This document shows positions 1 to 11,070 of a stretch of 64,000 nucleotides of DNA, piece after piece; position 1 is the stretch's first letter; each line of letters begins with the position of its first letter. Origin of the DNA: an uncultured Alphaproteobacteria bacterium (GTDB taxonomy: Bacteria; Pseudomonadota; Alphaproteobacteria; CAAHEQ01; UBA3637). The notes under the pieces were generated by a model. That model was given only the letters and a program-made list of their open reading frames with translations. It ran no database searches and was not told the origin of the DNA. Location: positions 25,701 to 89,700 of the forward strand of contig CALXXA010000025.1 of the NCBI GenBank assembly GCA_944392585.1. The letters are read 5' to 3'. Made by a program: the position numbers and the translations under genes.

Positions 1-789
1 TTTGGGACGATAATTCGGATTAACACCATAATAAGTATTAATAGCTATATATTTTGGATCCCAAACTTCCACATCGTACAGATATTTCTGATCTTCCCAC
101 AAAGAGAACGAAAAACTATCTCTCGATATTCTAGAACCCCATTTATCCTGATTTTCATATAAATCTTTTAAAATAGAATACCCTATAGACCAATCAATTA
201 AATTAGAAGTTCCTGTATTATTATAATTTTCTAAATTTTCAGCCACCTCTTCTTGAATTTTCTCCTCTAAAGAATCAACTCCCGTTAAGGCATTTTCATC
301 GAAAAAATTTTGTTTTGACAATTCATCCATCTCAACAACATCACTTAAAGCATATTCTTGGCTCATTCTCTCTGCCTCTGATTTCATTTTGTCCCACACA
401 TTTTGAGGATCAGAAAAATTATTCGACAATAAAGTTACATTACACTTTTCTAAGTCGGCCATACGACGTTTCACCAAAGCCAGGTCAATTAAAGTATCTC
501 TATAATCATTGCTGTCAACCATAGACTGAATTGTGTTTGCCATGTTATGAAATTTCATAGCTGCTAATAACTCTTTTCTATAACTTGTTGATGGGAAATT
601 TAACAAGAGTGGTTCCGGGGCCGATGGTTCTATACTAACGGCTCTTGGATTCCATACTTTTCCTTGGGTATCCTCTTCCTGCGTTTGTTTTACCTCCTGT
701 TGCTCCTGAGCCACCACTGGAAAAACAATTATTTCAATCCCCAAACAAAAAAGACTTATAAAAAAAATCTGCTTTAAATAAACTTTCAT
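1..789 (-). CDS. Partial secreted hypothetical protein (3' end runs off window). Starts at ATG 789..787 and is open to position 1 (263 codons checked by hand translation). N-terminal signal peptide MKVYLKQIFFISLFCLGIEIIVFPVVAQEQ.
   Basis: Manual reverse-strand translation shows an uninterrupted frame from 789 to 1 with a hydrophobic N-terminus. It is missing from the ORF track only because no stop lies inside the window. It sits 19 bp downstream of the 809..1672 gene on the same strand. Confidence 0.5.
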   Translation of the reverse strand, partial: MKVYLKQIFFISLFCLGIEIIVFPVVAQEQQEVKQTQEEDTQGKVWNPRAVSIEPSAPEPLLLNFPSTSYRKELLAAMKFHNMANTIQSMVDSNDYRDTLIDLALVKRRMADLEKCNVTLLSNNFSDPQNVWDKMKSEAERMSQEYALSDVVEMDELSKQNFFDENALTGVDSLEEKIQEEVAENLENYNNTGTSNLIDWSIGYSILKDLYENQDKWGSRISRDSFSFSLWEDQKYLYDVEVWDPKYIAINTYYGVNPNYRPK

Positions 790-808
790 TTTCTTTTTTC
801 CACTTTAA

Positions 809-1672
809 TTAAGATTCTCCGACTATTAATCCACGCACCGGATTTGCTTCCAACACCCCTAGAGCGCCTTTAAGCTGCAATCTTTCGGCCTTAATTTGTT
901 CTAACAAGGTCAATAACTTATACCATGTTGACATATAACGATAATTAGCATTTACGGCACCATATTTATCTTCTTGCGCGGAAGAAACGGATAACTCATC
1001 CACTGTTTTTTGTAAATCCTCTAACAAGTAGTCAAAATAAAGAGCATTCGCCATTGCTGAAATAGCATTTTCCTGAGCAAATAAATTTCTTTTTTCCTGC
1101 TCTTTTTGTAGCCCGACGGAAGATGTTTCCGTTGTTTGCATAATTTCCTTTTCAACCGCTTCAGCGACTTCCTTCGGGTTTGTTACATCTACAGATTTTC
1201 CAATTGACAAATCTGAATTAGAAGTTTTGTTTGTTTCATTCGATTGTGATGTATTTGAATCGGTTTTATTTTGATCCGAAGAAGTGTCATCTTTTTTATT
1301 TTGATTAGATTGTGTCGTATTATTTTCTTTTTTTGTATTTTTATTCTCTAAGACGGATATTCCTGTATCTTTTGCACTTTTTATTGGTTTAATAACCGGA
1401 GGGTTTGTTACTTCAATAGCTCTTTTTGTCAGAACTGGACCATCTTTTGACATTGTTTGTTGCAGAGACTGTCTATTTCCATAATCCAATACAGCGACCA
1501 ACGCCGCAATAATTTGCTGAGCGACCATCCCCCCCAAAATAGGAGTTGTCACAATATCTGTCACGGGAAGAGGTGTAATCATCGCATCTAAAACAGGAAA
1601 AGAAACAGCCCTTACCTTAGGAGGATAAAAGAATATTGCCGCTAAACAAATTAAAAAAAATAATTTTTTCAT
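809..1672 (-). CDS. Secreted hypothetical protein, 287 aa. Signal peptide, then a central N/S/T/Q/K-rich low-complexity region and C-terminal helices.
   Basis: Signal-peptide-like N-terminus MKKLFFLICLAAIFFYPPKVRA. The low-complexity segment NKNTKKENNTTQSNQNKKDDTSSDQNKTDSNTSQSNETNKTSNSD follows. Start is 1 bp after the stop of the upstream gene. Confidence 0.6.
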   Translation of the reverse strand: MKKLFFLICLAAIFFYPPKVRAVSFPVLDAMITPLPVTDIVTTPILGGMVAQQIIAALVAVLDYGNRQSLQQTMSKDGPVLTKRAIEVTNPPVIKPIKSAKDTGISVLENKNTKKENNTTQSNQNKKDDTSSDQNKTDSNTSQSNETNKTSNSDLSIGKSVDVTNPKEVAEAVEKEIMQTTETSSVGLQKEQEKRNLFAQENAISAMANALYFDYLLEDLQKTVDELSVSSAQEDKYGAVNANYRYMSTWYKLLTLLEQIKAERLQLKGALGVLEANPVRGLIVGES

Positions 1673-1673
1673 A

Positions 1674-2789
1674 TTATTCCTCTAATGAAATACTTTGAGA
1701 TCTTAAATTCATAGCAGCTTCTAACTTTAATAATTTTTGCTCTAACGCTACTTGAAGCATTGTTTCTTGAAGAATATTTTTAAGAGCCATTGTGTTTGTT
1801 GCAATCGCTTCCGTTTCTGTATTAACTTTGCTTTGCTCGTCTTTAATTACTTGAAGCCGTTCCTCGAAGTCTTTTTCTCCATTTTGAATATATGTTTGAG
1901 AATAAGTCATGGCATCAAGAACAACATCTTCTAATAATTTTTTACGTTTTTCTTGAACTTCCGACATTTTTTCTTCTTCGCTCTTCTGATCTGTTTTAGA
2001 GTAGAAGAAATTTTGTTTTATATAATTTACAGCACTTTGTTTACTTGTCTGTTTTTTGTCCAAACGATTGCTTTTAGAAACTTTGTTTTTTTGTTCTTGT
2101 TCCTCTTTTGCGTCTTCTTCTTGCTGCTGCTCTGTTTGAGTTGCCGACTGTTGAGCATTTTCTTGTGTTTGTTCTGTTACAGAAGTCTCTGACTGATTTG
2201 AAGCACTTTCACTTTGTTTTATTGAATCTACCGACTGTTGAACAACTTCTTGTGTTTTTTCTTTTGCCGAGGCAACCGTCTGATTTAAAGTATTTTCACT
2301 TTGCTTTATTGAATCTGTCGACTGTTGAACGATTTCTTGTGTTTTTTTCTCCGCATCCATAACTGTTTGAGCCACAGAATTTTCATTTAAACTACTCATC
2401 TCCCCAGAAACTTGACTGATACCGCTAATATCTCCTGTATCACCGGTTACTAATCCTTTATAACTCTGCGGAACGGACATTTTATCCAAAGCTTCCTGTG
2501 TTGCGTTTTTACCTTCTTTAGCAGTGCTTTCCGCATTAACATAAATTTCTTGAATATTTTGATTATACGCTTGAATTTTTTCGAACTCATTCAAATTAAT
2601 CATCAAAGAAGAGGCCATTCTGCTGTTATCTTGAATAACCTCTCCGGCTCCAGAAATTCCTAAACCATTTCCGTAATTTGTTGCCGCATTGACAAACTGC
2701 TGAGCATTTTGTGTCCGTTGAGCAAAAGAAGGGTCTCCTCCAAAAATAATCATTAAAAACAAGCTTGTTTCTGCGAGCTTTTTTATCAT
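1674..2789 (-). CDS. Secreted hypothetical repeat protein, 371 aa. Signal peptide plus 2.5 tandem 29-aa repeats (KEKTQEVVQQSVDSIKQSE...) and a Q/E-rich tail.
   Basis: Hydrophobic N-terminus ending ..SFA. An 87-bp period repeat is visible at nucleotide level. The start overlaps the upstream gene's stop by 4 nt (ATGA). Confidence 0.6.
   Translation of the reverse strand: MIKKLAETSLFLMIIFGGDPSFAQRTQNAQQFVNAATNYGNGLGISGAGEVIQDNSRMASSLMINLNEFEKIQAYNQNIQEIYVNAESTAKEGKNATQEALDKMSVPQSYKGLVTGDTGDISGISQVSGEMSSLNENSVAQTVMDAEKKTQEIVQQSTDSIKQSENTLNQTVASAKEKTQEVVQQSVDSIKQSESASNQSETSVTEQTQENAQQSATQTEQQQEEDAKEEQEQKNKVSKSNRLDKKQTSKQSAVNYIKQNFFYSKTDQKSEEEKMSEVQEKRKKLLEDVVLDAMTYSQTYIQNGEKDFEERLQVIKDEQSKVNTETEAIATNTMALKNILQETMLQVALEQKLLKLEAAMNLRSQSISLEE
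2141..2345. repeat. Intragenic tandem repeat, about 87-bp period, about 2.5 copies (units begin near 2141, 2229 and 2315).
   Basis: Direct repeats ..ccgactgttga(g/a)c(a/g)..ttcttgtgttt..tgattt(g/a)aag..ttcactttg(t/c)tttattgaatc.. are seen in the sequence. They are mirrored in the antisense ORF 2108..2362 as PTVEHFLVF / PTVEQLLVFF / STVERFLVFF. Confidence 0.65.
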
Positions 2790-3565
2790 GTTTTGCTCCC
2801 TTGACGAACAGTTTCTTGTTCTGTTATTTTTTGTTGATTATCTGTGTCTTGTTCGGTTGTTTCCTGTTGATTTTCTTTTTGTTCATCATCTTGTTGAAGA
2901 GGAAATTGTTCTACAGAAATTTTTTCTCCGACAATATTTGATAATTTCAAAGCAGCATTTATCGTACTTATTTGAGCATCTAATCGGTTAATTGAATTAA
3001 GTTTTTGAGCGATAGCAGACACATACAACATAAAGCCCGAAGATTTTTCTTGGAAATTTTCTGTTCCTTGAGCAACCTTTTTATCTAATTCATCGATACC
3101 GTCATTTGAAGCAGCAGCTTTTACTTGGAGAGCTTTACTATAGGAATCCAGAGCTGATATATGAAGGATAGCATTTGAAGCATCTTTAGACTTTTCGAAA
3201 CTTTCTGGAGAAGAAGTATCAACAGTTATCAGCTTCTCTGTTTCTTTCGAAACGCTTTTTCTCCCTTCTATCCCTTTACTTGCGGAATTTTTTAATTCAG
3301 ATAAGACAATCGGTTTTGCTTTTTGAGGATCTACCGTTCTTCCTAAATTCCCTGTAATATTTTTGACATTGGAGGCTTCCCCTATTGTTTTCATCCTATT
3401 ATAATCCTGCTGGTAAGATAAAGACATTTGAAAATACTCCAATAATTGTTGAATAATTATCGCACCTCGCAAAGTTGTCATAATAGCGTCATTTGTTGCT
3501 TTACAAGGAGAAACGCCGATAAAAGTGAAAAACAGTCCGATAAAAAAAGTCCTTATATAAGACAT
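2786..3565 (-). CDS. Secreted hypothetical protein, 259 aa. Signal peptide, helical, acidic/Gln-rich C-terminal tail.
   Basis: N-terminus MSYIRTFFIGLFFTFIGVSPCKA. Tail QQDDEQKENQQETTEQDTDNQQK. Only 8 bp downstream of the 3574..4320 gene. Confidence 0.6.
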   Translation of the reverse strand: MSYIRTFFIGLFFTFIGVSPCKATNDAIMTTLRGAIIIQQLLEYFQMSLSYQQDYNRMKTIGEASNVKNITGNLGRTVDPQKAKPIVLSELKNSASKGIEGRKSVSKETEKLITVDTSSPESFEKSKDASNAILHISALDSYSKALQVKAAASNDGIDELDKKVAQGTENFQEKSSGFMLYVSAIAQKLNSINRLDAQISTINAALKLSNIVGEKISVEQFPLQQDDEQKENQQETTEQDTDNQQKITEQETVRQGSKT

Positions 3566-3573
3566 AAAATCTC

Positions 3574-4320
3574 CTACTGATCGACTTGTTTTAAAGAATC
3601 CGTAGCAATCATTTCCAACTCTGATGCTTTCATTAAATTATTAATATTAATTTGAGAAGCGATCAGGTTCATCCCTTCTGTTTGAGCAGCAATCCCTTCC
3701 GCCAACGTTTCGGCACTATCTGACATTTGACGAATAGCTGACAACTTTTCTTCTTCGAAGTTAACTGCTTCTTCTTGCATAGCTAAACCTAATGAATAGC
3801 CATCTATAACTGCGTTTCTATTAGCTTCTTGTTGAGCTGTTTGAATATTTTTCAATTCTTGTTCTGTTAATTTAGTTGCTTTTTCGGAATCCGTCGGTTT
3901 CATCAGTTTCTTTTTAAAGCTTTCTTTAATTTTAGTGGGATTGACCGTAATATTCGACAAAGCCACACCTGTCTGAACACCCCGTATATTGCTCCCTAAT
4001 CCCAAAGAAAGAAGTCGATCTCCGGTTGTGCTATAATTTTCTTTTTTTGACAAACTAATATACCAGTTAAAACTTCTTAAATAATTCCCCCATTTTCCTC
4101 GGACGTTCCGATAATCTCCTTGAAATGTATAAATAGATCGAGTAACGGATCCCATATCCATAAATTGCATCCTTTGAAGCATAGTATTTGTATTTTCAAA
4201 GACAGCCAACGGCTTTTGAGTAAAATCTGTCACAGGATATGCGTAAACAGAAGAAGTCCAAAACAAAAAACCGAAAAACCACACCCCGATAAATTTAAAT
4301 AAAAAAGCTTTAATAACCAT
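3574..4320 (-). CDS. Secreted hypothetical protein, 248 aa. Signal peptide followed by an AYPVTDF motif and long helices. First gene of the operon.
   Basis: Hydrophobic N-terminus MVIKAFLFKFIGVWFFGFLFWTSSVYA. About 70-bp AT-rich gap upstream towards folD. Confidence 0.6.
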   Translation of the reverse strand: MVIKAFLFKFIGVWFFGFLFWTSSVYAYPVTDFTQKPLAVFENTNTMLQRMQFMDMGSVTRSIYTFQGDYRNVRGKWGNYLRSFNWYISLSKKENYSTTGDRLLSLGLGSNIRGVQTGVALSNITVNPTKIKESFKKKLMKPTDSEKATKLTEQELKNIQTAQQEANRNAVIDGYSLGLAMQEEAVNFEEEKLSAIRQMSDSAETLAEGIAAQTEGMNLIASQININNLMKASELEMIATDSLKQVDQ

Positions 4321-4391
4321 AGGAATCTTCCTTCTGAAAATGATGCTGTTTTTAATAATAAGCCAGCATATTTTATTTGTAAAGAAAAGTT

Positions 4392-5267
4392 TTAGCTCTT
4401 ATAAGGCATTATATTTAATCCTTTTTTTATCTGATTTTGAGCAGCTTTAAATGTATTGAACAGCAGCATAGCAACAGTCATAGGACCGACGCCTCCTGGA
4501 ACAGGGGTCATATAAGAAGCTATATTTTGAACAGCTTTAAAATCAACGTCTCCTGTAATTTCTCCATTATCCAGGCGATTAATTCCGACATCGATAACGA
4601 CAGCTCCTTTTTTCACGGCATTGGCTCCGATTAAGTGAGGAACGCCGACAGCTGTTACCAAAATATCTGCTTGGCTACAAACCTTATCAAGGTGGACCGT
4701 TTTAGAATGCGCTTGCGTTACGGTACAATCTTCTTGTAACAATAGATACGCCAAAGGTCTTCCTACCAAAGCAGATCTTCCGACAACAACGGCTCTTCTT
4801 CCGACCAAAGGAACTGGAATCTGTTTAATTAAGTACAAACACCCCATAGGCGTACATGGAATTAACGTTGGTATTTTAGACATCATTCTTCCGACATTAA
4901 CCGGATGCAAACCATCGACATCTTTGTCAGGATGAATTCGCTCTATCAATGTTTGCGGGTTTAAATGTATAGGAACCGGCAATTGCAGTAATATACCATG
5001 AACATCTGTTCGTTTATTCAACTCATCAATCAGCTCTAGAATCATTCTCTCAGAAGACATTCCGGACAAATGATAAGTTTCGACGACTACTCCAACTTCC
5101 TGTGCTTTTTTTTGTTTATTTTTAACATATATTAAACTTGCCGGATCATCTCCGACCAGAATAACGGCCAATTTGGGGGAAATATGATTTTTTTGAATCT
5201 CTTCTGCCAAATTTTGGCAAAAATCCGCTGCTATTTTCTTCCCATCAATTATTTTTGCGATACCCAT
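4392..5267 (-). CDS. folD: Bifunctional methylenetetrahydrofolate dehydrogenase / methenyltetrahydrofolate cyclohydrolase FolD.
   Basis: 291 aa with typical FolD N-terminus (IIDGKKIA...LAVILVGDDPASLIYVKNK) and length. Confidence 0.9.
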   Translation of the reverse strand: MGIAKIIDGKKIAADFCQNLAEEIQKNHISPKLAVILVGDDPASLIYVKNKQKKAQEVGVVVETYHLSGMSSERMILELIDELNKRTDVHGILLQLPVPIHLNPQTLIERIHPDKDVDGLHPVNVGRMMSKIPTLIPCTPMGCLYLIKQIPVPLVGRRAVVVGRSALVGRPLAYLLLQEDCTVTQAHSKTVHLDKVCSQADILVTAVGVPHLIGANAVKKGAVVIDVGINRLDNGEITGDVDFKAVQNIASYMTPVPGGVGPMTVAMLLFNTFKAAQNQIKKGLNIMPYKS

Positions 5268-5563
5268 TGATTTAAAATATCCTCTATTTCATGTAAATTA
5301 ACACTTATATGGACAAGTTTACACCGTGAAACGTGTCCTGTCACGATAAAAATAGAAGATTTTTTAATTTTTAGATTATCCGCTAAAAAGTTAATCAAAG
5401 CCTCATTCGCTTTTCCATCCACGGCAGGAGCCGTTAATGCAATTTTTAAAAATTGATTATTCCAGATTCCGCGAACGGCGGAACTATGCGCGTTTGGTAA
5501 AACACGTACAGACATTTCCACCCCTTCTTTTCTTAAACTTATAAATGGATAAGAATTTGCCAT
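5249..5563 (-). CDS. yggU: DUF167 / YggU family protein (UPF0235).
   Basis: 104 aa with ...ALTAPAVDGKANEALINFLADNLKIKKSSIFIVTG... typical of DUF167. Paired with yggT. Confidence 0.7.
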   Translation of the reverse strand: MANSYPFISLRKEGVEMSVRVLPNAHSSAVRGIWNNQFLKIALTAPAVDGKANEALINFLADNLKIKKSSIFIVTGHVSRCKLVHISVNLHEIEDILNQWVSQK

Positions 5564-6644: not shown

Positions 6645-7846
6645 TATCTTTTCTCTATAAGAGCGTTTTGGCGTAAATTTTTTAACATTTCATTTGAAAT
6701 TTCTTCCATTTTCACCATCTCAAGACGTGTTTTAATAAGCTCTTTATCCGGCAAAACAGAAATTATCTTTGAATCGCACTTCATCAAAAATAAATAAAAA
6801 TCATTCCCATCGATTGGTCCGGTTATTTTTCCGACAGAAATATCTTTTAATGCTTGATATAACTGATCCGGCATTCTCGCCACGACCATATCCGGCATTA
6901 TTCCGGATCCTTTAAGTCCTTCTTTTTCTGCTAAGATATTAAAAGTCTTACAATCTGGATTTTTTTGAATTTCTGTCATTATAGGAACTAATTTGTCTTT
7001 TGATATTAAAAGCTGGCTAACTGTCCAAGCTTCAACATCTGTTGAAGTTAGTTCTTTTTGTTGTTCCCGCATTAAAATAAGATAATACCCTTTTTCTCCT
7101 TCGATAGGTTTAGATAATTGCCCTGCTCTCATATAAGGCAAAATATTATCTACGGCTTTTTCCATTTGTCCAGGACGTACCCATCCTAAGTCTCCTCCAG
7201 ACAAGGCTGTTTCTCCTTTAGAATTTTCCATTGCCAATTCCGGGAAAGAACTTCCTGCTACGACTTGATTGAACAATTCATTAACCTTTTCTTGACTCTT
7301 CCCTTTGTCTTTTCCAAAAGGAATATAAATTTCTGCGATTAAATAAGCTGGTTGGATAACTTCTTTTTCTAGTTTTTTCTGTTCTTTTGAAATTTCATCT
7401 TCTGTAACGACCGGAGGCTTCTCATTTTTTACTCGCAGAACTTTCAACCATCCTAAGTCGGCTTTTATTTGGCGTTCTAAGGTATTAAAATCGACCTGAT
7501 TTTCCTTAAACAACTTCCGTAAAGATCCTTCAGGCATTTGATTTTGTTCTTCTAAATAAGATATCCCATGAGCAATTTCAGCTTCTGCCAATTCAATATT
7601 CAGAGCAACAGCTTCCTGTATTTTGATTTGTTCGTCAATAAGCGTATTTAAAACTCTTTGACGCATTTCATTGCTTTGAGCAACCTCCGGAGGTATTTTC
7701 ATCAATACTTCCATCATTCTAATCCGGGCAGAGACATCATAATCAGAAATAACTTCATCATTCACTGTGGCAACTATTTCAAATGCCTGGCATGGGAAAA
7801 TAAAACAACTCATCAGAATGGTTATAAAAAATTTTTTTATTCTCAT
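6644..7846 (-). CDS. surA: SurA-like periplasmic chaperone / peptidyl-prolyl isomerase.
   Basis: 400 aa with signal peptide and SurA N-domain-like sequence. Conserved position between lptD and rsmA. Confidence 0.75.
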   Translation of the reverse strand: MRIKKFFITILMSCFIFPCQAFEIVATVNDEVISDYDVSARIRMMEVLMKIPPEVAQSNEMRQRVLNTLIDEQIKIQEAVALNIELAEAEIAHGISYLEEQNQMPEGSLRKLFKENQVDFNTLERQIKADLGWLKVLRVKNEKPPVVTEDEISKEQKKLEKEVIQPAYLIAEIYIPFGKDKGKSQEKVNELFNQVVAGSSFPELAMENSKGETALSGGDLGWVRPGQMEKAVDNILPYMRAGQLSKPIEGEKGYYLILMREQQKELTSTDVEAWTVSQLLISKDKLVPIMTEIQKNPDCKTFNILAEKEGLKGSGIMPDMVVARMPDQLYQALKDISVGKITGPIDGNDFYLFLMKCDSKIISVLPDKELIKTRLEMVKMEEISNEMLKNLRQNALIEKR

Positions 7847-9972
7847 TACACGGCTCCCAATGTCTTCAAAACAACCCGAACGAAGAAAGAAGTATCTCCT
7901 TTATAATCACGATCTTTTGTAAACTCTTTCTCTCCTGAAAATATTAAGATAAGGCATTCATTTTCATATTGCAAGCCGCCTCCGGCTTTAATAGGACCTC
8001 CGCCACTTGCCAAGTCATATTGATAAAATCCGTAAGTAGACCAATCACGAGATATTTTTGAATTAAAACTTAATGTAATTTCTTCTCTGTCTCGTAATGT
8101 TTTTGTTTCTAAGTTTTCTTTATTAGCCGTCAAATATAGATAGCTGACTCCTATGCGGAAAGGATTTCTCCCAGCTCTTAAGGTTACTTCAGACATTTCA
8201 TGTTTTAAATTATTTTGATTTATCCTAAACCGATAATTTAAAAAAACATCTTGTATATTAACATTCAACCGTCCTACATAAGAAGAAAAAGAATCTTCGA
8301 ATCCAGACCCTTTTGAAACTATATCATCTTCATGGAAACGATAAGCTTGTCCGACCAATCCGGAAACAGACATATTCCCTTTCGCATAAAGCGTCCATTG
8401 CAATCCATAGTTCAATCTTAATCCTGTTTCCACTCGATCGTACCCATTATATCGATTCGTTGAAAATAAAGTAATATCATCGAACTCATAATCTAAACTA
8501 TCCTCATTAGGAATATCATTATTCGAAGACGTATTAGGAGACCAAACCCCCATAATAATCGGTTCTAAAATTTGACTATAATTTTCTGATTGTTGTATAA
8601 AAGGATATCGCATTTCAACAGACATATTAGGATAAACTCTTGAAGTTTCTTTTGTTCCCTCTTGATCATTCCAATCTATGATATATCCATCGAATCGAAT
8701 ACTTGCTTGAGTATTAAACACAGCTCCTATTGAAGAAACATACGGCATCTCGAAAGCTTGTAAAAAAGAAATTCTGGAGGAATCAACGCCACTGTCCTTG
8801 TAAATACCTGCGGAATTTACTTGAGAGAAAGAATATAATCCTTTGTAAAACGGATTTGTTACATATTGATAATTAAATTGAGGAACGATCGGCATACTTC
8901 TATTGGACACATCATTTCTTAAGTTTTGGAAGCTATAAACTCTGGCATATGCATAATCTTGCTTTCCGAAGTAATCGACTGTAGCATCACTTTGAATCCA
9001 CGGAGCCTGATCATCAACGTGGTCAATTGGATAGCGTCTAAAATAAGTATCGTCGCTTACTCTAAAATAATTTCCTCTAAAGCGTAATTGGTTTGTTATA
9101 TCATACTGAAAATTTGCTTTAATATGTCCTTGATTGTCTTTATCATCATCCTGGGTCGCGGAAAAATCCATTGTTAGAGCACTTTGATGATAAATTCCTC
9201 GATATTGTCCCTGAAGCAAAGGAACATGGGAAGGGGAAAGAATAGGAGAAATATATAAATCCTGACTATTGGAAATGGCCCAAAAAAAAGGCACTTCGAC
9301 ACCCGCGCCCATTTCCGTGGAACTTGCTAAAGAAGGAGCTAGAAAACCTGTTTTTCTTTTAACTTGAAAATCCGGATACGCTAAATAAGGCCAGTAGAAT
9401 ACCGGAAGTCCTTTGACATCCAAGAAAGCATGTTTATATATAAATTCTTTTTCTTCATAATTATGAGTTACTTCTTGTGCACGAACACTCCAAATAGGCT
9501 TTGTTTCTTTGCAATAATCACACGGAGTAAAAAAAACATCTTTCAGGCATGTTTCATTTCCCATGTCTTTCCGCATAATGCTATCTGCAAGAAAGATAGA
9601 TCCATCGGCTAACCGCATTTCAACAATTCGAATAACGCCTTGTTTTAGTTGATCTGTCATTTGAGCGTGCTCAGATTCGATAACAACTCCGTCCGGTCGT
9701 TTTAATACGACATGCCCAATTGCGTCCAATTGATCTGTTTTCCTGTCGTAAATGATTTTATCGGCCGTTAAAGTTGTTTTATCCTGAATAATGATAACAT
9801 TTCCTTGAGCGGTTACAACATCATTCTGTTCATTATAAGAAAAAGAATCCGCTTCAAAAGTAATCGGCAAATCTGTATTTTGTTTTGTATCTGTTACAAA
9901 CTGATGTTGAACGGCATCGGCGTTATTTCCATATAAACAGAGGAAACATATAAAAAAAACAGCCTTTTTCAT
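7846..9972 (-). CDS. lptD: LPS-assembly outer membrane protein LptD. This is the part of the 1074-codon ORF that begins at the internal ATG 9972..9970, MKKAVFFICFLCLYGNNADA.
   Basis: About 708 aa with its own signal peptide and the large beta-rich OstA-like sequence. It lies upstream of surA as in other proteobacteria. Confidence 0.8.
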   Translation of the reverse strand: MKKAVFFICFLCLYGNNADAVQHQFVTDTKQNTDLPITFEADSFSYNEQNDVVTAQGNVIIIQDKTTLTADKIIYDRKTDQLDAIGHVVLKRPDGVVIESEHAQMTDQLKQGVIRIVEMRLADGSIFLADSIMRKDMGNETCLKDVFFTPCDYCKETKPIWSVRAQEVTHNYEEKEFIYKHAFLDVKGLPVFYWPYLAYPDFQVKRKTGFLAPSLASSTEMGAGVEVPFFWAISNSQDLYISPILSPSHVPLLQGQYRGIYHQSALTMDFSATQDDDKDNQGHIKANFQYDITNQLRFRGNYFRVSDDTYFRRYPIDHVDDQAPWIQSDATVDYFGKQDYAYARVYSFQNLRNDVSNRSMPIVPQFNYQYVTNPFYKGLYSFSQVNSAGIYKDSGVDSSRISFLQAFEMPYVSSIGAVFNTQASIRFDGYIIDWNDQEGTKETSRVYPNMSVEMRYPFIQQSENYSQILEPIIMGVWSPNTSSNNDIPNEDSLDYEFDDITLFSTNRYNGYDRVETGLRLNYGLQWTLYAKGNMSVSGLVGQAYRFHEDDIVSKGSGFEDSFSSYVGRLNVNIQDVFLNYRFRINQNNLKHEMSEVTLRAGRNPFRIGVSYLYLTANKENLETKTLRDREEITLSFNSKISRDWSTYGFYQYDLASGGGPIKAGGGLQYENECLILIFSGEKEFTKDRDYKGDTSFFVRVVLKTLGAV

Positions 9973-11070
9973 CCCAATCCGCCAAAAAGATCCTCTATAT
10001 AAAATAATTCCTCCGAAAAGCAATGGGAACAAAATATTGATTGCCATCAAAGGTAAGTAAATCAAATTCTTATTTGATAAGTTTTCAAACCCTAATGATA
10101 AAGACTGAATAATAATAACACTTACAACTGCTAAATAAATTCGACCGTTTTGACCTCTTCGATTATAATACCCTAATAAAAACGGAATTAAAGCAATAAC
10201 CAAATATACAAGGGAATATAATGGTTGTGTTAGTCTTTTAAACGCTTCAACTTTATACTCACGATAATCAGCCTTACTTAAATGAGGTGTTTTTTCTGTT
10301 GCCTCCAACAATGAATATAAAGATTGTTCATCCTCGGTTTGTATACGTGTTTTCGGGTTTTGTTTTTCATCTTCCAAAATCATCGTATAATGTTCAAAGC
10401 TCAAAGAAGAGAAAATAGCATTTTGACGATTATATTCTTGTCGTTGCCCATTGTTCATTACAATTTTTGAGACATTATTCCCTGGAATAAAAAACCCTTT
10501 TTCAGCGACTAAAATGACTCTTTTCCCAGGATCTCTTGTATCATGAATAAAAATCCCTTTCAGCTCTCCGGAACTCCTAAAAACACGTACGTAAGCCGTC
10601 ACATTATTGGAGAGATTATTAAATTCACCTTCTTGCAACATAACATGAGCTAGATCATTTCTGATTTTAAATCGAAGTTCTTTAAAACGTGCAACAGAAT
10701 CCGGCACTAACCATAAAGTCAGGAAATATCCTATTATGACTAAGATTATTCCGATATACAACGCTGGTTTCGCCAGTTGCCACGGAGACATGCCGACAGC
10801 TTTCATAACGACCAACTCTCTATCTGCCAATAATCTATTATAAGTAAACAATAAAATTATAAAAAAAGCCAATGGCGTAATAACAACTATAAAATTAGGC
10901 AGGACTAGAAAAGTCAATTCCATAAATAAATTGACAGATACCCCTTTATTCACAATCCAATCAATCATTCTTAAGGATTGTGATAACCAAATAATTCCGG
11001 TCATTCCAAGAGCAATTAGAAGAAATCCGATAAAAAGCTGTCTTGTAATATATTTATTTATTATTTTCAT
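9973..11070 (-). CDS. lptG: LptF/LptG family LPS export permease (YjgP/YjgQ). It reads in-frame into lptD with no stop codon.
   Basis: The N-terminal 366 aa of ORF 7846..11070 show the MKIINKYITRQLF... start and the six-TM architecture typical of LptF/LptG. The junction ..RGSFWRIG|MKKAVFF.. contains no stop. Confidence 0.7.

What the first reader, a model, noticed from the sequence alone, without database searches (positions are those of the whole stretch)
1..4391. Operon of at least five tandem genes for secreted, helix-rich proteins of no recognisable family, possibly a VirB5/TrbJ-like paralog array
Five co-directional minus-strand genes (3574..4320, 2786..3565, 1674..2789, 809..1672 and partial 1..789) are separated by -4 to +19 bp, so they are almost certainly co-transcribed. 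The operon continues beyond the window edge. Each product starts with a signal peptide. The rest is low-complexity (N/S/T/Q/E-rich) or predicted helical. None of them matches a housekeeping family I recognise. By contrast, nearly every other gene in the window is conserved core machinery. Four of the products have a short Gly motif in the first about 50 mature residues: YGN (809..1672), YGNGLG (1674..2789), TGNLGR (2786..3565) and WGN (3574..4320). Two carry an xPVxD motif directly after the signal peptide (AYPVTDF and PLPVTD / FPVLDA). That motif plus all-helical content is reminiscent of T4SS minor pilins of the VirB5/TrbJ/TrwJ type, which are known to be amplified in tandem in Bartonella Trw loci. 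No other T4SS genes are present in the window, so this resemblance is speculative. The alternative is a lineage-specific family of surface or host-interaction proteins.
Basis: partly seen in the sequence, partly recalled or inferred. Interest (0 to 1): 0.75.

Follow-up and report, generated by a model that had tools for sequence, protein, structure and literature searches.

The report
VirB5-like gene array opening a T4SS operon
The five unannotated secreted-protein genes at the window edge are the start of a chromosomal type IV secretion operon of an uncultured gut alphaproteobacterium; three, probably four, of them are very distant, anciently diverged relatives of the VirB5 pilus-tip protein, and the fifth is a conserved secreted protein of unknown fold.

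Summary
In detail: five co-directional minus-strand ORFs, spaced -4 to +19 bp, each with a signal-peptide-like N-terminus and no Pfam or NCBIfam hit.

The decisive evidence lies just beyond position 1. On a 100% identical metagenome contig the operon continues with a VirB8 paralog, a VirB7-like lipoprotein, VirB8, VirB9, a ~2250-aa VirB10 (beta-flower repeats) and, in related species where that end was read, VirB11.

Relatives of this locus's VirB9 occur in 106 species-level genomes, all 80 listed being gut or rumen MAGs. 50 of the 59 with enough flank carry the module in the same order.

- The four complete proteins show no BLAST similarity to each other.
- Family profiles link p248, p259 and p371 (p287 weakly) through a shared C-terminal ~110-aa domain.
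- They also link to the protein encoded right after VirB4 in three plasmid T4SSs, one of which passes Pfam's VirB5 threshold.
- The PVxD motif at the mature N-terminus matches all eight canonical VirB5s examined and TrwJ.
- The AlphaFold model was too weak for a fold test.

The fifth gene (603 aa) is unrelated and unknown. The array is an ancient, ordered set, not a Bartonella Trw-style recent amplification. Verdict: a new variant of a known kind, of moderate interest.

The parts
4355..4383 (-). Promoter-like site (TTTACA-17-TATTAT) in the 71-bp folD-p248 spacer; candidate operon promoter
   Evidence: Joint top score (10 of 12) in the scan of 1..5400 and the only such site on the minus strand, at the expected place. 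The total number of sites is not above the shuffled expectation (22 against 17.1 +/- 3.6), so this is weak evidence.
3574..4320 (-). p248: secreted, helical, VirB5-like paralog 1. Mature N-terminus YPVTD; conserved QGDxR loop; C-terminal helical hairpin domain.
   Evidence: ORF. Only 7 clusters found by the homolog search and 30 representatives in 1.84e9 proteins. Family profile against int5 (VirB5-position proteins): 98.3%, E 1.3e-14; 96.7% with the window protein defining the match columns. Profile against PDB: top hit TrwJ, E 3.4e-4. AF2: helices 153-201 and 206-247 at pLDDT 62-89.
2786..3565 (-). p259: secreted VirB5-like paralog 2. No PVxD; ITGNLGR loop; E/Q/T-rich repeat tail.
   Evidence: ORF. 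hhalign against the p248 family 96.9%, and against int5 94.3% / 91.1%. The strict shallow orthogroup gave no signal (0.9%), so support is moderate.
2814..2876 (-). 33-bp tandem repeat inside the p259 tail; strains differ here by a 15-aa insertion
   Evidence: TRF. 259 aa against 274 aa in L003 and L005, with the rest almost identical.
1674..2789 (-). p371: secreted VirB5-like paralog 3, with a central Q/S/T/E-rich repeat region and a C-terminal VirB5-like domain ending in LLKLEAAMNL
   Evidence: ORF. hhalign against the p248 family 97.0%, and against int5 96.6% / 91.1%; strict groups 56% and 54%. 17 of 57 orthologs carry P[VIL]xD after the signal peptide.
2144..2385 (-). 87-bp (29-aa) in-frame tandem repeat in p371; copy number differs between strains
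   Evidence: TRF: period 87, 2.1-2.3 copies. 371 aa against 342 aa in L005, exactly one 29-aa unit shorter.
809..1672 (-). p287: secreted protein with two PVxD motifs (SFPVLD, PLPVTD) and a YGNR loop; probable VirB5-like paralog 4 (weakest link)
   Evidence: ORF. hhalign against p248 69%, int5 85% / 18%, int6 92.4%. One p287-family member (L014) is among the 8 ORFs hit by the int5 HMM.
1..789 (-). N-terminal 263 codons of p603, a 603-aa secreted protein of unknown family, conserved and not VirB5-like
   Evidence: Translation; full length on L001 10884-12695. 21 clusters with no names and no Pfam. Conserved W/Y/C/P motifs. No PDB relative. hhalign against all other families 5% or less.

Best explanation
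The five genes are the promoter-proximal part of a chromosomal type IV secretion (T4SS) operon of an uncultured gut alphaproteobacterium. The operon runs p248, p259, p371, p287, p603, VirB8-II, VirB7-like lipoprotein, VirB8, VirB9, giant VirB10, VirB11.

p248, p259, p371 and probably p287 are ancient, strongly diverged paralogs of the VirB5/TrbJ minor-pilin (tip) family. I infer the following, none of it shown:
- They are exported by Sec.
- They assemble in the periplasm on the T4SS stalk.
- They are displayed at the tip of the pilus or surface appendage, where they contact the target cell.
- Their variable, repeat-bearing regions are the exposed, fast-evolving parts.

Each paralog has its own orthologs in a fixed gene order across about 50 species. 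They are therefore non-redundant subunits, a mixed or alternative tip complex, rather than variation cassettes. p603 is a conserved secreted accessory subunit of unknown role.

Shown: operon membership, conservation, profile-level homology and motifs. Inferred: export, localisation, tip function and stoichiometry.
For: 1. Context. The window is 100% identical over 11,672 nt to contig L001. There the operon continues with a VirB8 paralog, a 58-aa lipoprotein, VirB8 (PF04335, E 8e-13), VirB9 (PF03524, E 3e-12) and a VirB10. In relatives the VirB10 C-terminus is a TrbI domain (E 8e-31) and is followed by a VirB11 ATPase.
2. Conservation. In 50 of 59 species-level loci with at least 9 kb of upstream flank, 3-5 module genes plus p603 precede VirB8-II in the same order.
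3. Paralogy. hhalign between family alignments gives p248-p259 96.9%, p248-p371 97.0% and p259-p371 93.9%, over the C-terminal ~110 residues.
4. Link to VirB5.
- The protein right after VirB4 in the Microvirga, Erythrobacter and Sphingosinicella plasmid T4SSs (int5) matches the p248, p371 and p259 families at 98.3, 96.6 and 94.3%. It matches canonical VirB5 at 93.5%.
- Reversed-sequence controls are below 1%.
- Er_251 passes PF07996: 30.3 bits against a cut-off of 24.7.
5. Reverse search. VirB5-type HMMs searched against 8,074 ORFs hit 10 ORFs (9 distinct), all inside the module (positions).
6. PDB. The p248-family profile searched against all PDB sequences has TrwJ (R388 VirB5) as its top hit, E 3.4e-4.
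7. Motif. All 8 canonical VirB5s examined, and TrwJ, start the mature chain with [IV]PVxD. p248 and p287 do the same, and the motif is enriched 4-9 fold in three of the families.
8. VirB7. The lipoprotein matches the Microvirga VirB7-position protein at E 8e-19.
Against: - No window protein hits PF07996 or any family directly. Only 1 of 50 family members does, at E 6.8e-5.
- Direct hhalign to canonical VirB5 is weak: 39% for p248, 24% for p259, 3% or less for p371 and p287.
- With strict, shallow orthogroups the signals drop to 56%, 54%, 0.9% and 15%. The strong values therefore depend on families gathered by iterated HMM search.
- The TrwJ hit includes the signal peptide, which most PDB chains lack.
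- The genes are not in the canonical VirB4-VirB5-VirB6 position.
- No VirB2, B3, B4 or B6 was found in the window or within 10 kb of any of the 80 loci.
Confidence: 0.7

Rival explanations
1. The genes encode lineage-specific periplasmic or surface T4SS accessory proteins. They would be needed for assembly of the apparatus or appendage, comparable to H. pylori CagH/CagI/CagL, but would not act as VirB5-type tip subunits. The sequence resemblance to VirB5 would be remote ancestry or convergence of helical secreted proteins.
For: Operon membership is firm, while the direct VirB5 tests are weak and the fold is untested. CagL appears repeatedly among the non-significant top Foldseek hits (E about 1). 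p603 and VirB8-II show that this system has lineage-specific additions.
Against: The link to VirB5-position proteins, one of which is a Pfam-certified VirB5, is collinear and specific. The mature N-terminal PVxD motif is shared.
Confidence: 0.17
2. This is a Bartonella Trw-like array: recently amplified VirB5 copies that provide interchangeable, antigenically variable pilus subunits.
For: There are several VirB5-like genes in tandem. They evolve fast: 43-58% identity between species in which VirB9 is 83-85% identical. Strains differ in repeat number. Trw biology as described in PMC4676284.
Against: The paralogs have no BLAST similarity (best E 0.04). Each has distinct orthologs in a fixed order in 50 of 59 species. 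There are no co-amplified VirB6 or VirB7 units. The divergence therefore predates the radiation of the lineage.
Confidence: 0.05
3. The genes encode secreted effectors or surface antigens that are functionally unrelated to the T4SS and merely sit upstream of it.
For: No family assignment. Low-complexity regions. A separate promoter-like site.
Against: Tight spacing through to VirB8-II, including a 50-nt overlap between p603 and the VirB8 paralog. Co-conservation with the T4SS genes across species. Homology to genes internal to plasmid T4SS operons.
Confidence: 0.05

Closest known systems
VirB5/TrbJ/TraC/TrwJ minor pilin family (Pfam PF07996; TraC 1R8I, TrwJ 7O3V/8RT9)
   Same: Sec signal peptide; 230-370 aa; mostly helical. 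PVxD at the mature N-terminus, a Gly loop 40-50 residues in, and a C-terminal helical module that aligns collinearly. Encoded inside a T4SS operon.
   Different: Below Pfam detection. There are four to five diverged paralogs instead of one. They sit upstream of VirB8-II/VirB7 rather than between VirB4 and VirB6. They carry inserted low-complexity repeat regions. The fold is not verified.
MobA/MobL-linked plasmid T4SSs of Microvirga sp. VF16 pMVF16-3, an Erythrobacter aureus plasmid and Sphingosinicella p1
   Same: Closest VirB11 in the plasmid collection (38-40% identity). Homologous VirB7-like lipoprotein (E 8e-19). Two VirB5-like secreted proteins (int5, int6) that match the p248, p259, p371 and p287 families.
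   Different: These are plasmid T4SSs that encode a MobA/MobL protein, VirB2/3/4 and VirD4 in one block (PLSDB types two as non-mobilizable and one as mobilizable). Their VirB10 is of normal size (529-590 aa), and they have no p603 and no second VirB8.
Bartonella Trw T4SS (amplified trwL and trwJ-I-H)
   Same: Multiple VirB5 homologs in one locus, on a T4SS thought to build variable surface structures (PMC4676284).
   Different: Here the paralogs are ancient, ordered and individually conserved. There is no co-amplified VirB6/VirB7 and no detectable pairwise similarity.
Rickettsiales rvh T4SS
   Same: Chromosomal. Duplicated, divergent VirB8, in the same local order B8-II, B7, B8-I, B9, B10, B11 (PMC4676284). 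The other components are not adjacent.
   Different: Both VirB8 copies here keep the NPxG motif (NPVG and NPLG). VirB5-like genes are present. VirB10 is giant. Phylogenetic relatedness to rvh was not tested.
Helicobacter pylori Cag T4SS
   Same: Giant repeat-bearing VirB10 (cf. CagY). Several secreted helical accessory proteins sharing a C-terminal module (cf. CagH/I/L; from my own knowledge).
   Different: The 'CagX' Pfam name is just the generic VirB9 family. The repeats here are beta-flower (PF21785, E 1e-98). No Cag-specific homologs were found.

Membership tests
VirB5/TrbJ (PF07996) | Match to the family HMM above Pfam's gathering score | tested here: not met
   No window protein matches, even at E of 1 or less. 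1 of 50 p248-family members matches at E 6.8e-5. None of the 30 library representatives matches.
VirB5/TrbJ (PF07996) | Profile-profile homology to bona fide VirB5 proteins | tested here: inconclusive
   Direct comparison with 8 canonical VirB5s: 39%, 24%, 3% and 2%. Via int5: 98.3%, 96.6%, 94.3% and 85%. One int5 member, Er_251, passes PF07996 at 30.3 bits against a cut-off of 24.7, and int5 matches canonical VirB5 at 93.5%. Strict shallow groups are weaker.
VirB5/TrbJ (PF07996) | Sec signal peptide followed at once by [IV]PVxD at the mature N-terminus | tested here: met
   Met for p248 (YPVTD) and p287 (FPVLD and PLPVTD). Absent from the window's p259 and p371, but present in 17 of 57 p371 orthologs. 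All 8 canonical VirB5s and TrwJ have it.
VirB5/TrbJ (PF07996) | Elongated helical bundle with an appendage (TraC/TrwJ fold) | tested here: inconclusive
VirB5/TrbJ (PF07996) | Gene located between virB4 and virB6 | tested here: not met
   The genes lie upstream of p603 and VirB8-II. No VirB4 or VirB6 lies within 10 kb of any of the 80 loci.
VirB5/TrbJ (PF07996) | Pentamer on the stalk and at the pilus tip | not testable with these tools
   Needs cryo-EM or immuno-localisation. The role is described in PMC12624023.
Bartonella Trw-type amplification | Tandem copies of trwJ-trwI-trwH units with recognisable mutual similarity | tested here: not met
   No BLASTP similarity among the paralogs. No VirB6 or VirB7 copies are interleaved. 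The order is fixed across species.
P-type (VirB/Trb-like) T4SS operon | Co-directional VirB7-VirB8-VirB9-VirB10-VirB11 core adjacent to the genes | tested here: met
   PF04335, PF03524, PF03743 and PF00437 hits, plus a lipoprotein homologous to the Microvirga VirB7-position protein.
Rickettsiales rvh-type T4SS | Divergent VirB8-II with a degenerate NPxG motif, and no VirB5 | tested here: not met
   A VirB8 paralog is present in the rvh-like order, but it keeps NPVG, and VirB5-like genes are present.

The most novel reading that the evidence does not exclude
The four (in some species five) individually conserved VirB5-like paralogs would assemble into one hetero-oligomeric tip, possibly a hetero-pentamer replacing the usual VirB5 homopentamer. 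That tip would sit on a previously undescribed chromosomal T4SS subtype with a giant beta-flower VirB10, a VirB9 with a SPOR-like tail, a duplicated VirB8 and p603. The system is core to a widespread uncultured order of human and ruminant gut Alphaproteobacteria, and would be used for contact with host or prey cells rather than for conjugation.
Probability: 0.15. Interest if true: 0.8.

Novelty: new variant of a known kind. Interest (0 to 1): 0.55.

Why it matters
It assigns a context and a probable role to five 'hypothetical' genes. It also exposes an apparently undescribed T4SS architecture, found through its VirB9 in 106 species-level genomes and, for all 80 listed, in uncultured Alphaproteobacteria from human, ruminant, rabbit and horse guts.

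A fixed set of four to five diverged VirB5 paralogs is unusual, because VirB5 normally acts as a homopentameric tip. If the paralogs co-assemble, this would be a natural test case for how T4SS tips recognise targets. The fast-evolving, repeat-variable regions are candidate contact surfaces with the host or with a competitor.

The practical value for now is better annotation, and a defined target for structure prediction and metatranscriptomics.

Tried and rejected
- Pfam and NCBIfam on all five proteins: nothing.
- Pairwise BLASTP among the operon proteins: only VirB8 against its paralog.
- Close-homolog profile (A2) against PDB: nothing.
- Word-indexed homolog search with a 50-sequence alignment: only 12 proteins, because of the candidate cap.
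- Full HMMER search of 1.84e9 representatives: 30 hits, none reaching canonical VirB5 and none with a Pfam domain.
- AF2 with 12 sequences: unusable, pLDDT 34.5. With 30 sequences only the C-terminal hairpin is confident.
- p603 profile against PDB: nothing.
- Literature searches for RF32, CAG-239 or beta-flower with T4SS: no paper on this system.
- Rejected: a 'Cag-like' reading based on the Pfam name CagX, which is the generic VirB9 family.
- Rejected: Bartonella/Rhizobiales origin.
- Rejected: the WGN motif in p248 as the conserved Gly motif.
- The search for VirB2/3/4/6/D4 near the locus found only one VirD4, in a distant relative (L087).
Full report
**Observation.** The five minus-strand ORFs are present at the stated coordinates: 3574..4320 (248 aa, 'p248'), 2786..3565 (259 aa, 'p259'), 1674..2789 (371 aa, 'p371'), 809..1672 (287 aa, 'p287') and an ORF open at the window edge, 1..789. 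The spacings are 8, -4, 1 and 19 bp. Each starts with a hydrophobic segment and an A-x-A-like site (sequence reading and a hydropathy scan; SignalP was not available). None has a significant Pfam or NCBIfam match. One of the two best sigma-70-like matches in 1..5400, and the only one on the minus strand (TTTACA-17-TATTAT, 10 of 12), lies in the 71-bp folD-p248 spacer. The scan as a whole is not above chance.

**What lies beyond the window edge.** An exact-protein look-up placed p287 on a 33.7-kb metagenome scaffold, L001. L001 is 100% identical to the window over 11,672 nt. On it the edge ORF is a complete 603-aa protein ('p603'). It is followed, co-directionally and tightly spaced, by these genes:
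- a 236-aa paralog of VirB8 (BLASTP E 1e-10 to the next VirB8);
- a 58-aa lipoprotein;
- VirB8 (PF04335, E 8e-13);
- a 555-aa VirB9 (PF03524, E 3e-12) with a weak SPOR-like tail;
- a protein of about 2250 aa with an N-terminal TM segment and beta-flower repeats (PF21785, E 6e-74).

In full-length relatives the giant protein ends in a TrbI/VirB10 domain (E 8e-31). It is followed by a 329-aa VirB11-type ATPase, after which the operon ends in housekeeping or unannotated genes. The finding is therefore the 5' part of a T4SS operon. The rest of the window is housekeeping: folD, rsmA, surA, HtpG, BamA, DnaE, UvrD, AsmA and TrkH. It contains no VirB2, B3, B4, B6 or D4.

**Distribution.** A scan of species-representative genomes with VirB9 found 106 relatives. 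The 80 fetched are almost all labelled as uncultured gut or rumen Alphaproteobacteria MAGs from human (including Hadza), yak, sheep, goat, roe deer, rabbit and horse. A few carry evidently wrong bin names. Of 59 loci with at least 9 kb upstream of VirB9, 50 carry 3-5 module genes plus p603 in the same order, p248-p259-p371-p287-p603-VirB8-II-VirB7-VirB8-VirB9. Nine lack the module at that place, and folD lies upstream on the same strand in 31. The system is therefore chromosomal, old and vertically conserved. I suspect these genomes belong to the GTDB order RF32, but that is from memory and was not tested.

**Are the four complete proteins paralogs?** They are not at BLAST level (best E 0.04).
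- *Iterated HMMs.* Families gathered from the 80 loci by iterated HMM search overlap for p248, p259 and p371.
- *Family alignments.* hhalign gives p248-p259 96.9%, p248-p371 97.0%, p259-p371 93.9%, p248-p287 69%, and nothing for p603. The match always covers the C-terminal ~110 residues.
- *Strict groups.* With strict, shallow orthogroups (5-13 sequences) only p248-p371 keeps a signal, at 56%. The strong values therefore depend on the broader families.

**Are they VirB5-like?**

*Direct tests are negative or weak.*
- No window protein hits PF07996.
- One of 50 family members does, at E 6.8e-5.
- A full HMMER search of 1.84e9 representatives finds only 30 relatives, none with a Pfam domain.
- hhalign against eight canonical alphaproteobacterial VirB5s gives 39% (p248), 24% (p259) and 3% or less (p371, p287). 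Reversed controls give 0.2% or less.

*Indirect tests are consistent and specific.*
1. The closest VirB11s in the plasmid collection (38-40% identity) belong to T4SSs of Microvirga, Erythrobacter and Sphingosinicella plasmids that also encode a MobA/MobL protein. In these, VirB4 is followed by a secreted protein of 251-273 aa ('int5') and then by a second secreted protein of about 430 aa ('int6').
2. Er_251 passes PF07996 (30.3 bits against a cut-off of 24.7, full-length match) and is named 'type IV secretion system protein' by PGAP. int5 matches canonical VirB5 at 93.5%.
3. int5 matches the p248, p371, p259 and p287 families at 98.3% (E 1e-14), 96.6%, 94.3% and 85%, and p603 at 3%. int6 matches p287 at 92.4%. 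Reversed controls are below 1%. With the window protein defining the match columns the values are 96.7, 91.1, 91.1 and 18%.
4. In the reverse direction, HMMs of int5, int6 and canonical VirB5 were searched against 8,074 ORFs from all loci and the window. They hit 10 ORFs (9 distinct). Seven hits are assigned to the p248, p371 or p287 families. The other three lie at module positions between the housekeeping flank and p259.
5. The broad p248-family profile, searched against every PDB sequence, has TrwJ (VirB5 of R388) as its top hit (E 3.4e-4). The match includes the signal peptide and the GIPVFD motif.
6. All eight canonical VirB5s begin the mature chain with [IV]PV[IK]D and have a TG[DN]R-type loop about 45 residues later. 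p248 has YPVTD and an invariant QGDxR. p287 has FPVLD, PLPVTD and YGNR. p259 has ITGNLGR. P[VIL]xD is enriched to 15-30% in three families against a 3.4% background.

**p603.** It is conserved (21 clusters; found by iterated HMM in 66 of the fetched loci). It has invariant W/Y/C/H residues and a PRPLPP stretch. It has no Pfam, PDB or paralog relationship. Its role is unknown. I regard it as a lineage-specific secreted subunit of the apparatus.

**Evolutionary tempo.** Between the window species and two related species, housekeeping proteins are 70-77% identical and VirB7, VirB9 and VirB10 are 76-86% identical. The five proteins and VirB8-II are only 43-58% identical. Within the species, strains that are otherwise nearly identical differ by one 29-aa repeat unit in p371 and by a 15-aa repeat insertion in the p259 tail.

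**Mechanism proposed (inferred).** VirB5 forms a pentamer on top of VirB6 in the stalk. It is carried to the pilus tip, where it is thought to contact the recipient (PMC12624023). I propose the following:
- The VirB5-like paralogs are exported by Sec and occupy this position.
- Because each paralog is individually conserved in a fixed order, they act as distinct subunits of a mixed tip, or as alternative tips, and not as variation cassettes.
- Their repeat-bearing, fast-evolving regions are surface exposed.

What the T4SS transfers is unknown. No relaxase or VirD4 lies next to the operon, although a distant relative has a VirD4 8 kb away.

**Comparison with known systems.**
- *Closest sequence relatives:* the Microvirga, Erythrobacter and Sphingosinicella plasmid T4SSs.
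- *Functional analogies:* Bartonella Trw, with multiple TrwJ (PMC4676284), and Cag, with the giant CagY.
- *Gene order:* B8-II, B7, B8, B9, B10, B11 mirrors the Rickettsiales rvh locus, but both VirB8 copies here keep NPxG.
- *Not Trw-like amplification:* this reading is excluded.

**Verdict.** This is a new variant of a known kind. Interest is moderate (0.55), and would be higher if the mixed-tip idea or a new T4SS subtype were borne out.

Noticed in passing
window 7846..11070 (-): A single 1074-aa ORF joins a complete LptF/LptG permease domain (res 6-358, E 2.6e-71) to a complete LptD (LptD_N 406-451, barrel 646-1010, E 4.5e-51). LptD's own Met and signal peptide (MKKAVFFICFLCLYGNNADA) are kept in frame, with no stop codon between the two parts. 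The same 1074-aa ORF is called in another species (L009 3250-6474). It is either a true inner-to-outer-membrane Lpt fusion, perhaps cleaved by signal peptidase, or a case of internal initiation.
   Followed up: partly
L001 16333-20864 (partial); full length in L014 11644-18444: The VirB10 of this T4SS is 2150-2500 aa long. It has an N-terminal TM segment, then about 1800 aa of beta-flower repeats (PF21785 E 1e-98, PF21784, DUF3659), then a C-terminal TrbI domain (E 8e-31). This is a CagY-like enlargement built from a different repeat type.
   Followed up: partly
L001 12646-14390: VirB8 is duplicated (the 236-aa paralog and the 250-aa VirB8; BLASTP 28% identity over 119 residues, E 1e-10). A VirB7-like lipoprotein lies between the two copies. 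The order B8-II, B7, B8, B9, B10, B11 is the same as in the Rickettsia rvh locus, although both copies here retain NPxG. Relatedness to rvh was not tested.
   Followed up: partly
L001 14629-16296: VirB9 is about 550 aa, twice the usual size. It has a Gly/Ser-rich insert and a weak C-terminal SPOR-like (peptidoglycan-binding) match (PF05036, E 8.7e-4, just below the cut-off).
   Followed up: no
window 2144..2385 and 2814..2876; L003, L005: Strains with otherwise nearly identical sequence differ by whole in-frame repeat units. p371 is 371 or 342 aa (one 29-aa unit), and p259 is 259 or 274 aa. Metagenome assembly error in the repeats cannot be excluded.
   Followed up: partly
L093 12044-13330; L106 9802-11163; L107 6523-7791: In the three related plasmid T4SSs the slot after VirB5 holds a secreted helical protein of 420-450 aa. 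It is itself VirB5-like in part (int5-int6 96.3%). In Erythrobacter and Sphingosinicella no other gene is annotated between VirB5 and VirB8 that could be a polytopic VirB6, although TM content was checked only for the Microvirga proteins. Microvirga has an extra 228-aa hydrophobic protein that looks multi-TM.
   Followed up: no
L087 57-2399 (-): A distant member of the lineage has a VirD4 homolog (E 1e-105 to Microvirga VirD4) about 8 kb upstream of its VirB8-II/VirB9 genes, on the opposite strand. No other locus shows VirB2, B3, B4, B6 or D4 within 10 kb.
   Followed up: no
L043 3237-4169; L046 2894-3661; L026 1763-4585: Some species carry extra module genes: a second p248-like copy, a 469-aa apolipoprotein-like helical protein, and in L043 an ORF that the canonical VirB5 HMM hits directly (E 1.6e-4). 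The array therefore varies from 3 to 5 or more members.
   Followed up: partly
L015, L025, L028, L089: Several genome records carrying this alphaproteobacterial locus are labelled Lactobacillales, Holdemanella biformis or Limosilactobacillus gorillae. This probably reflects mis-binning or mislabelled MAGs in the public records.
   Followed up: no
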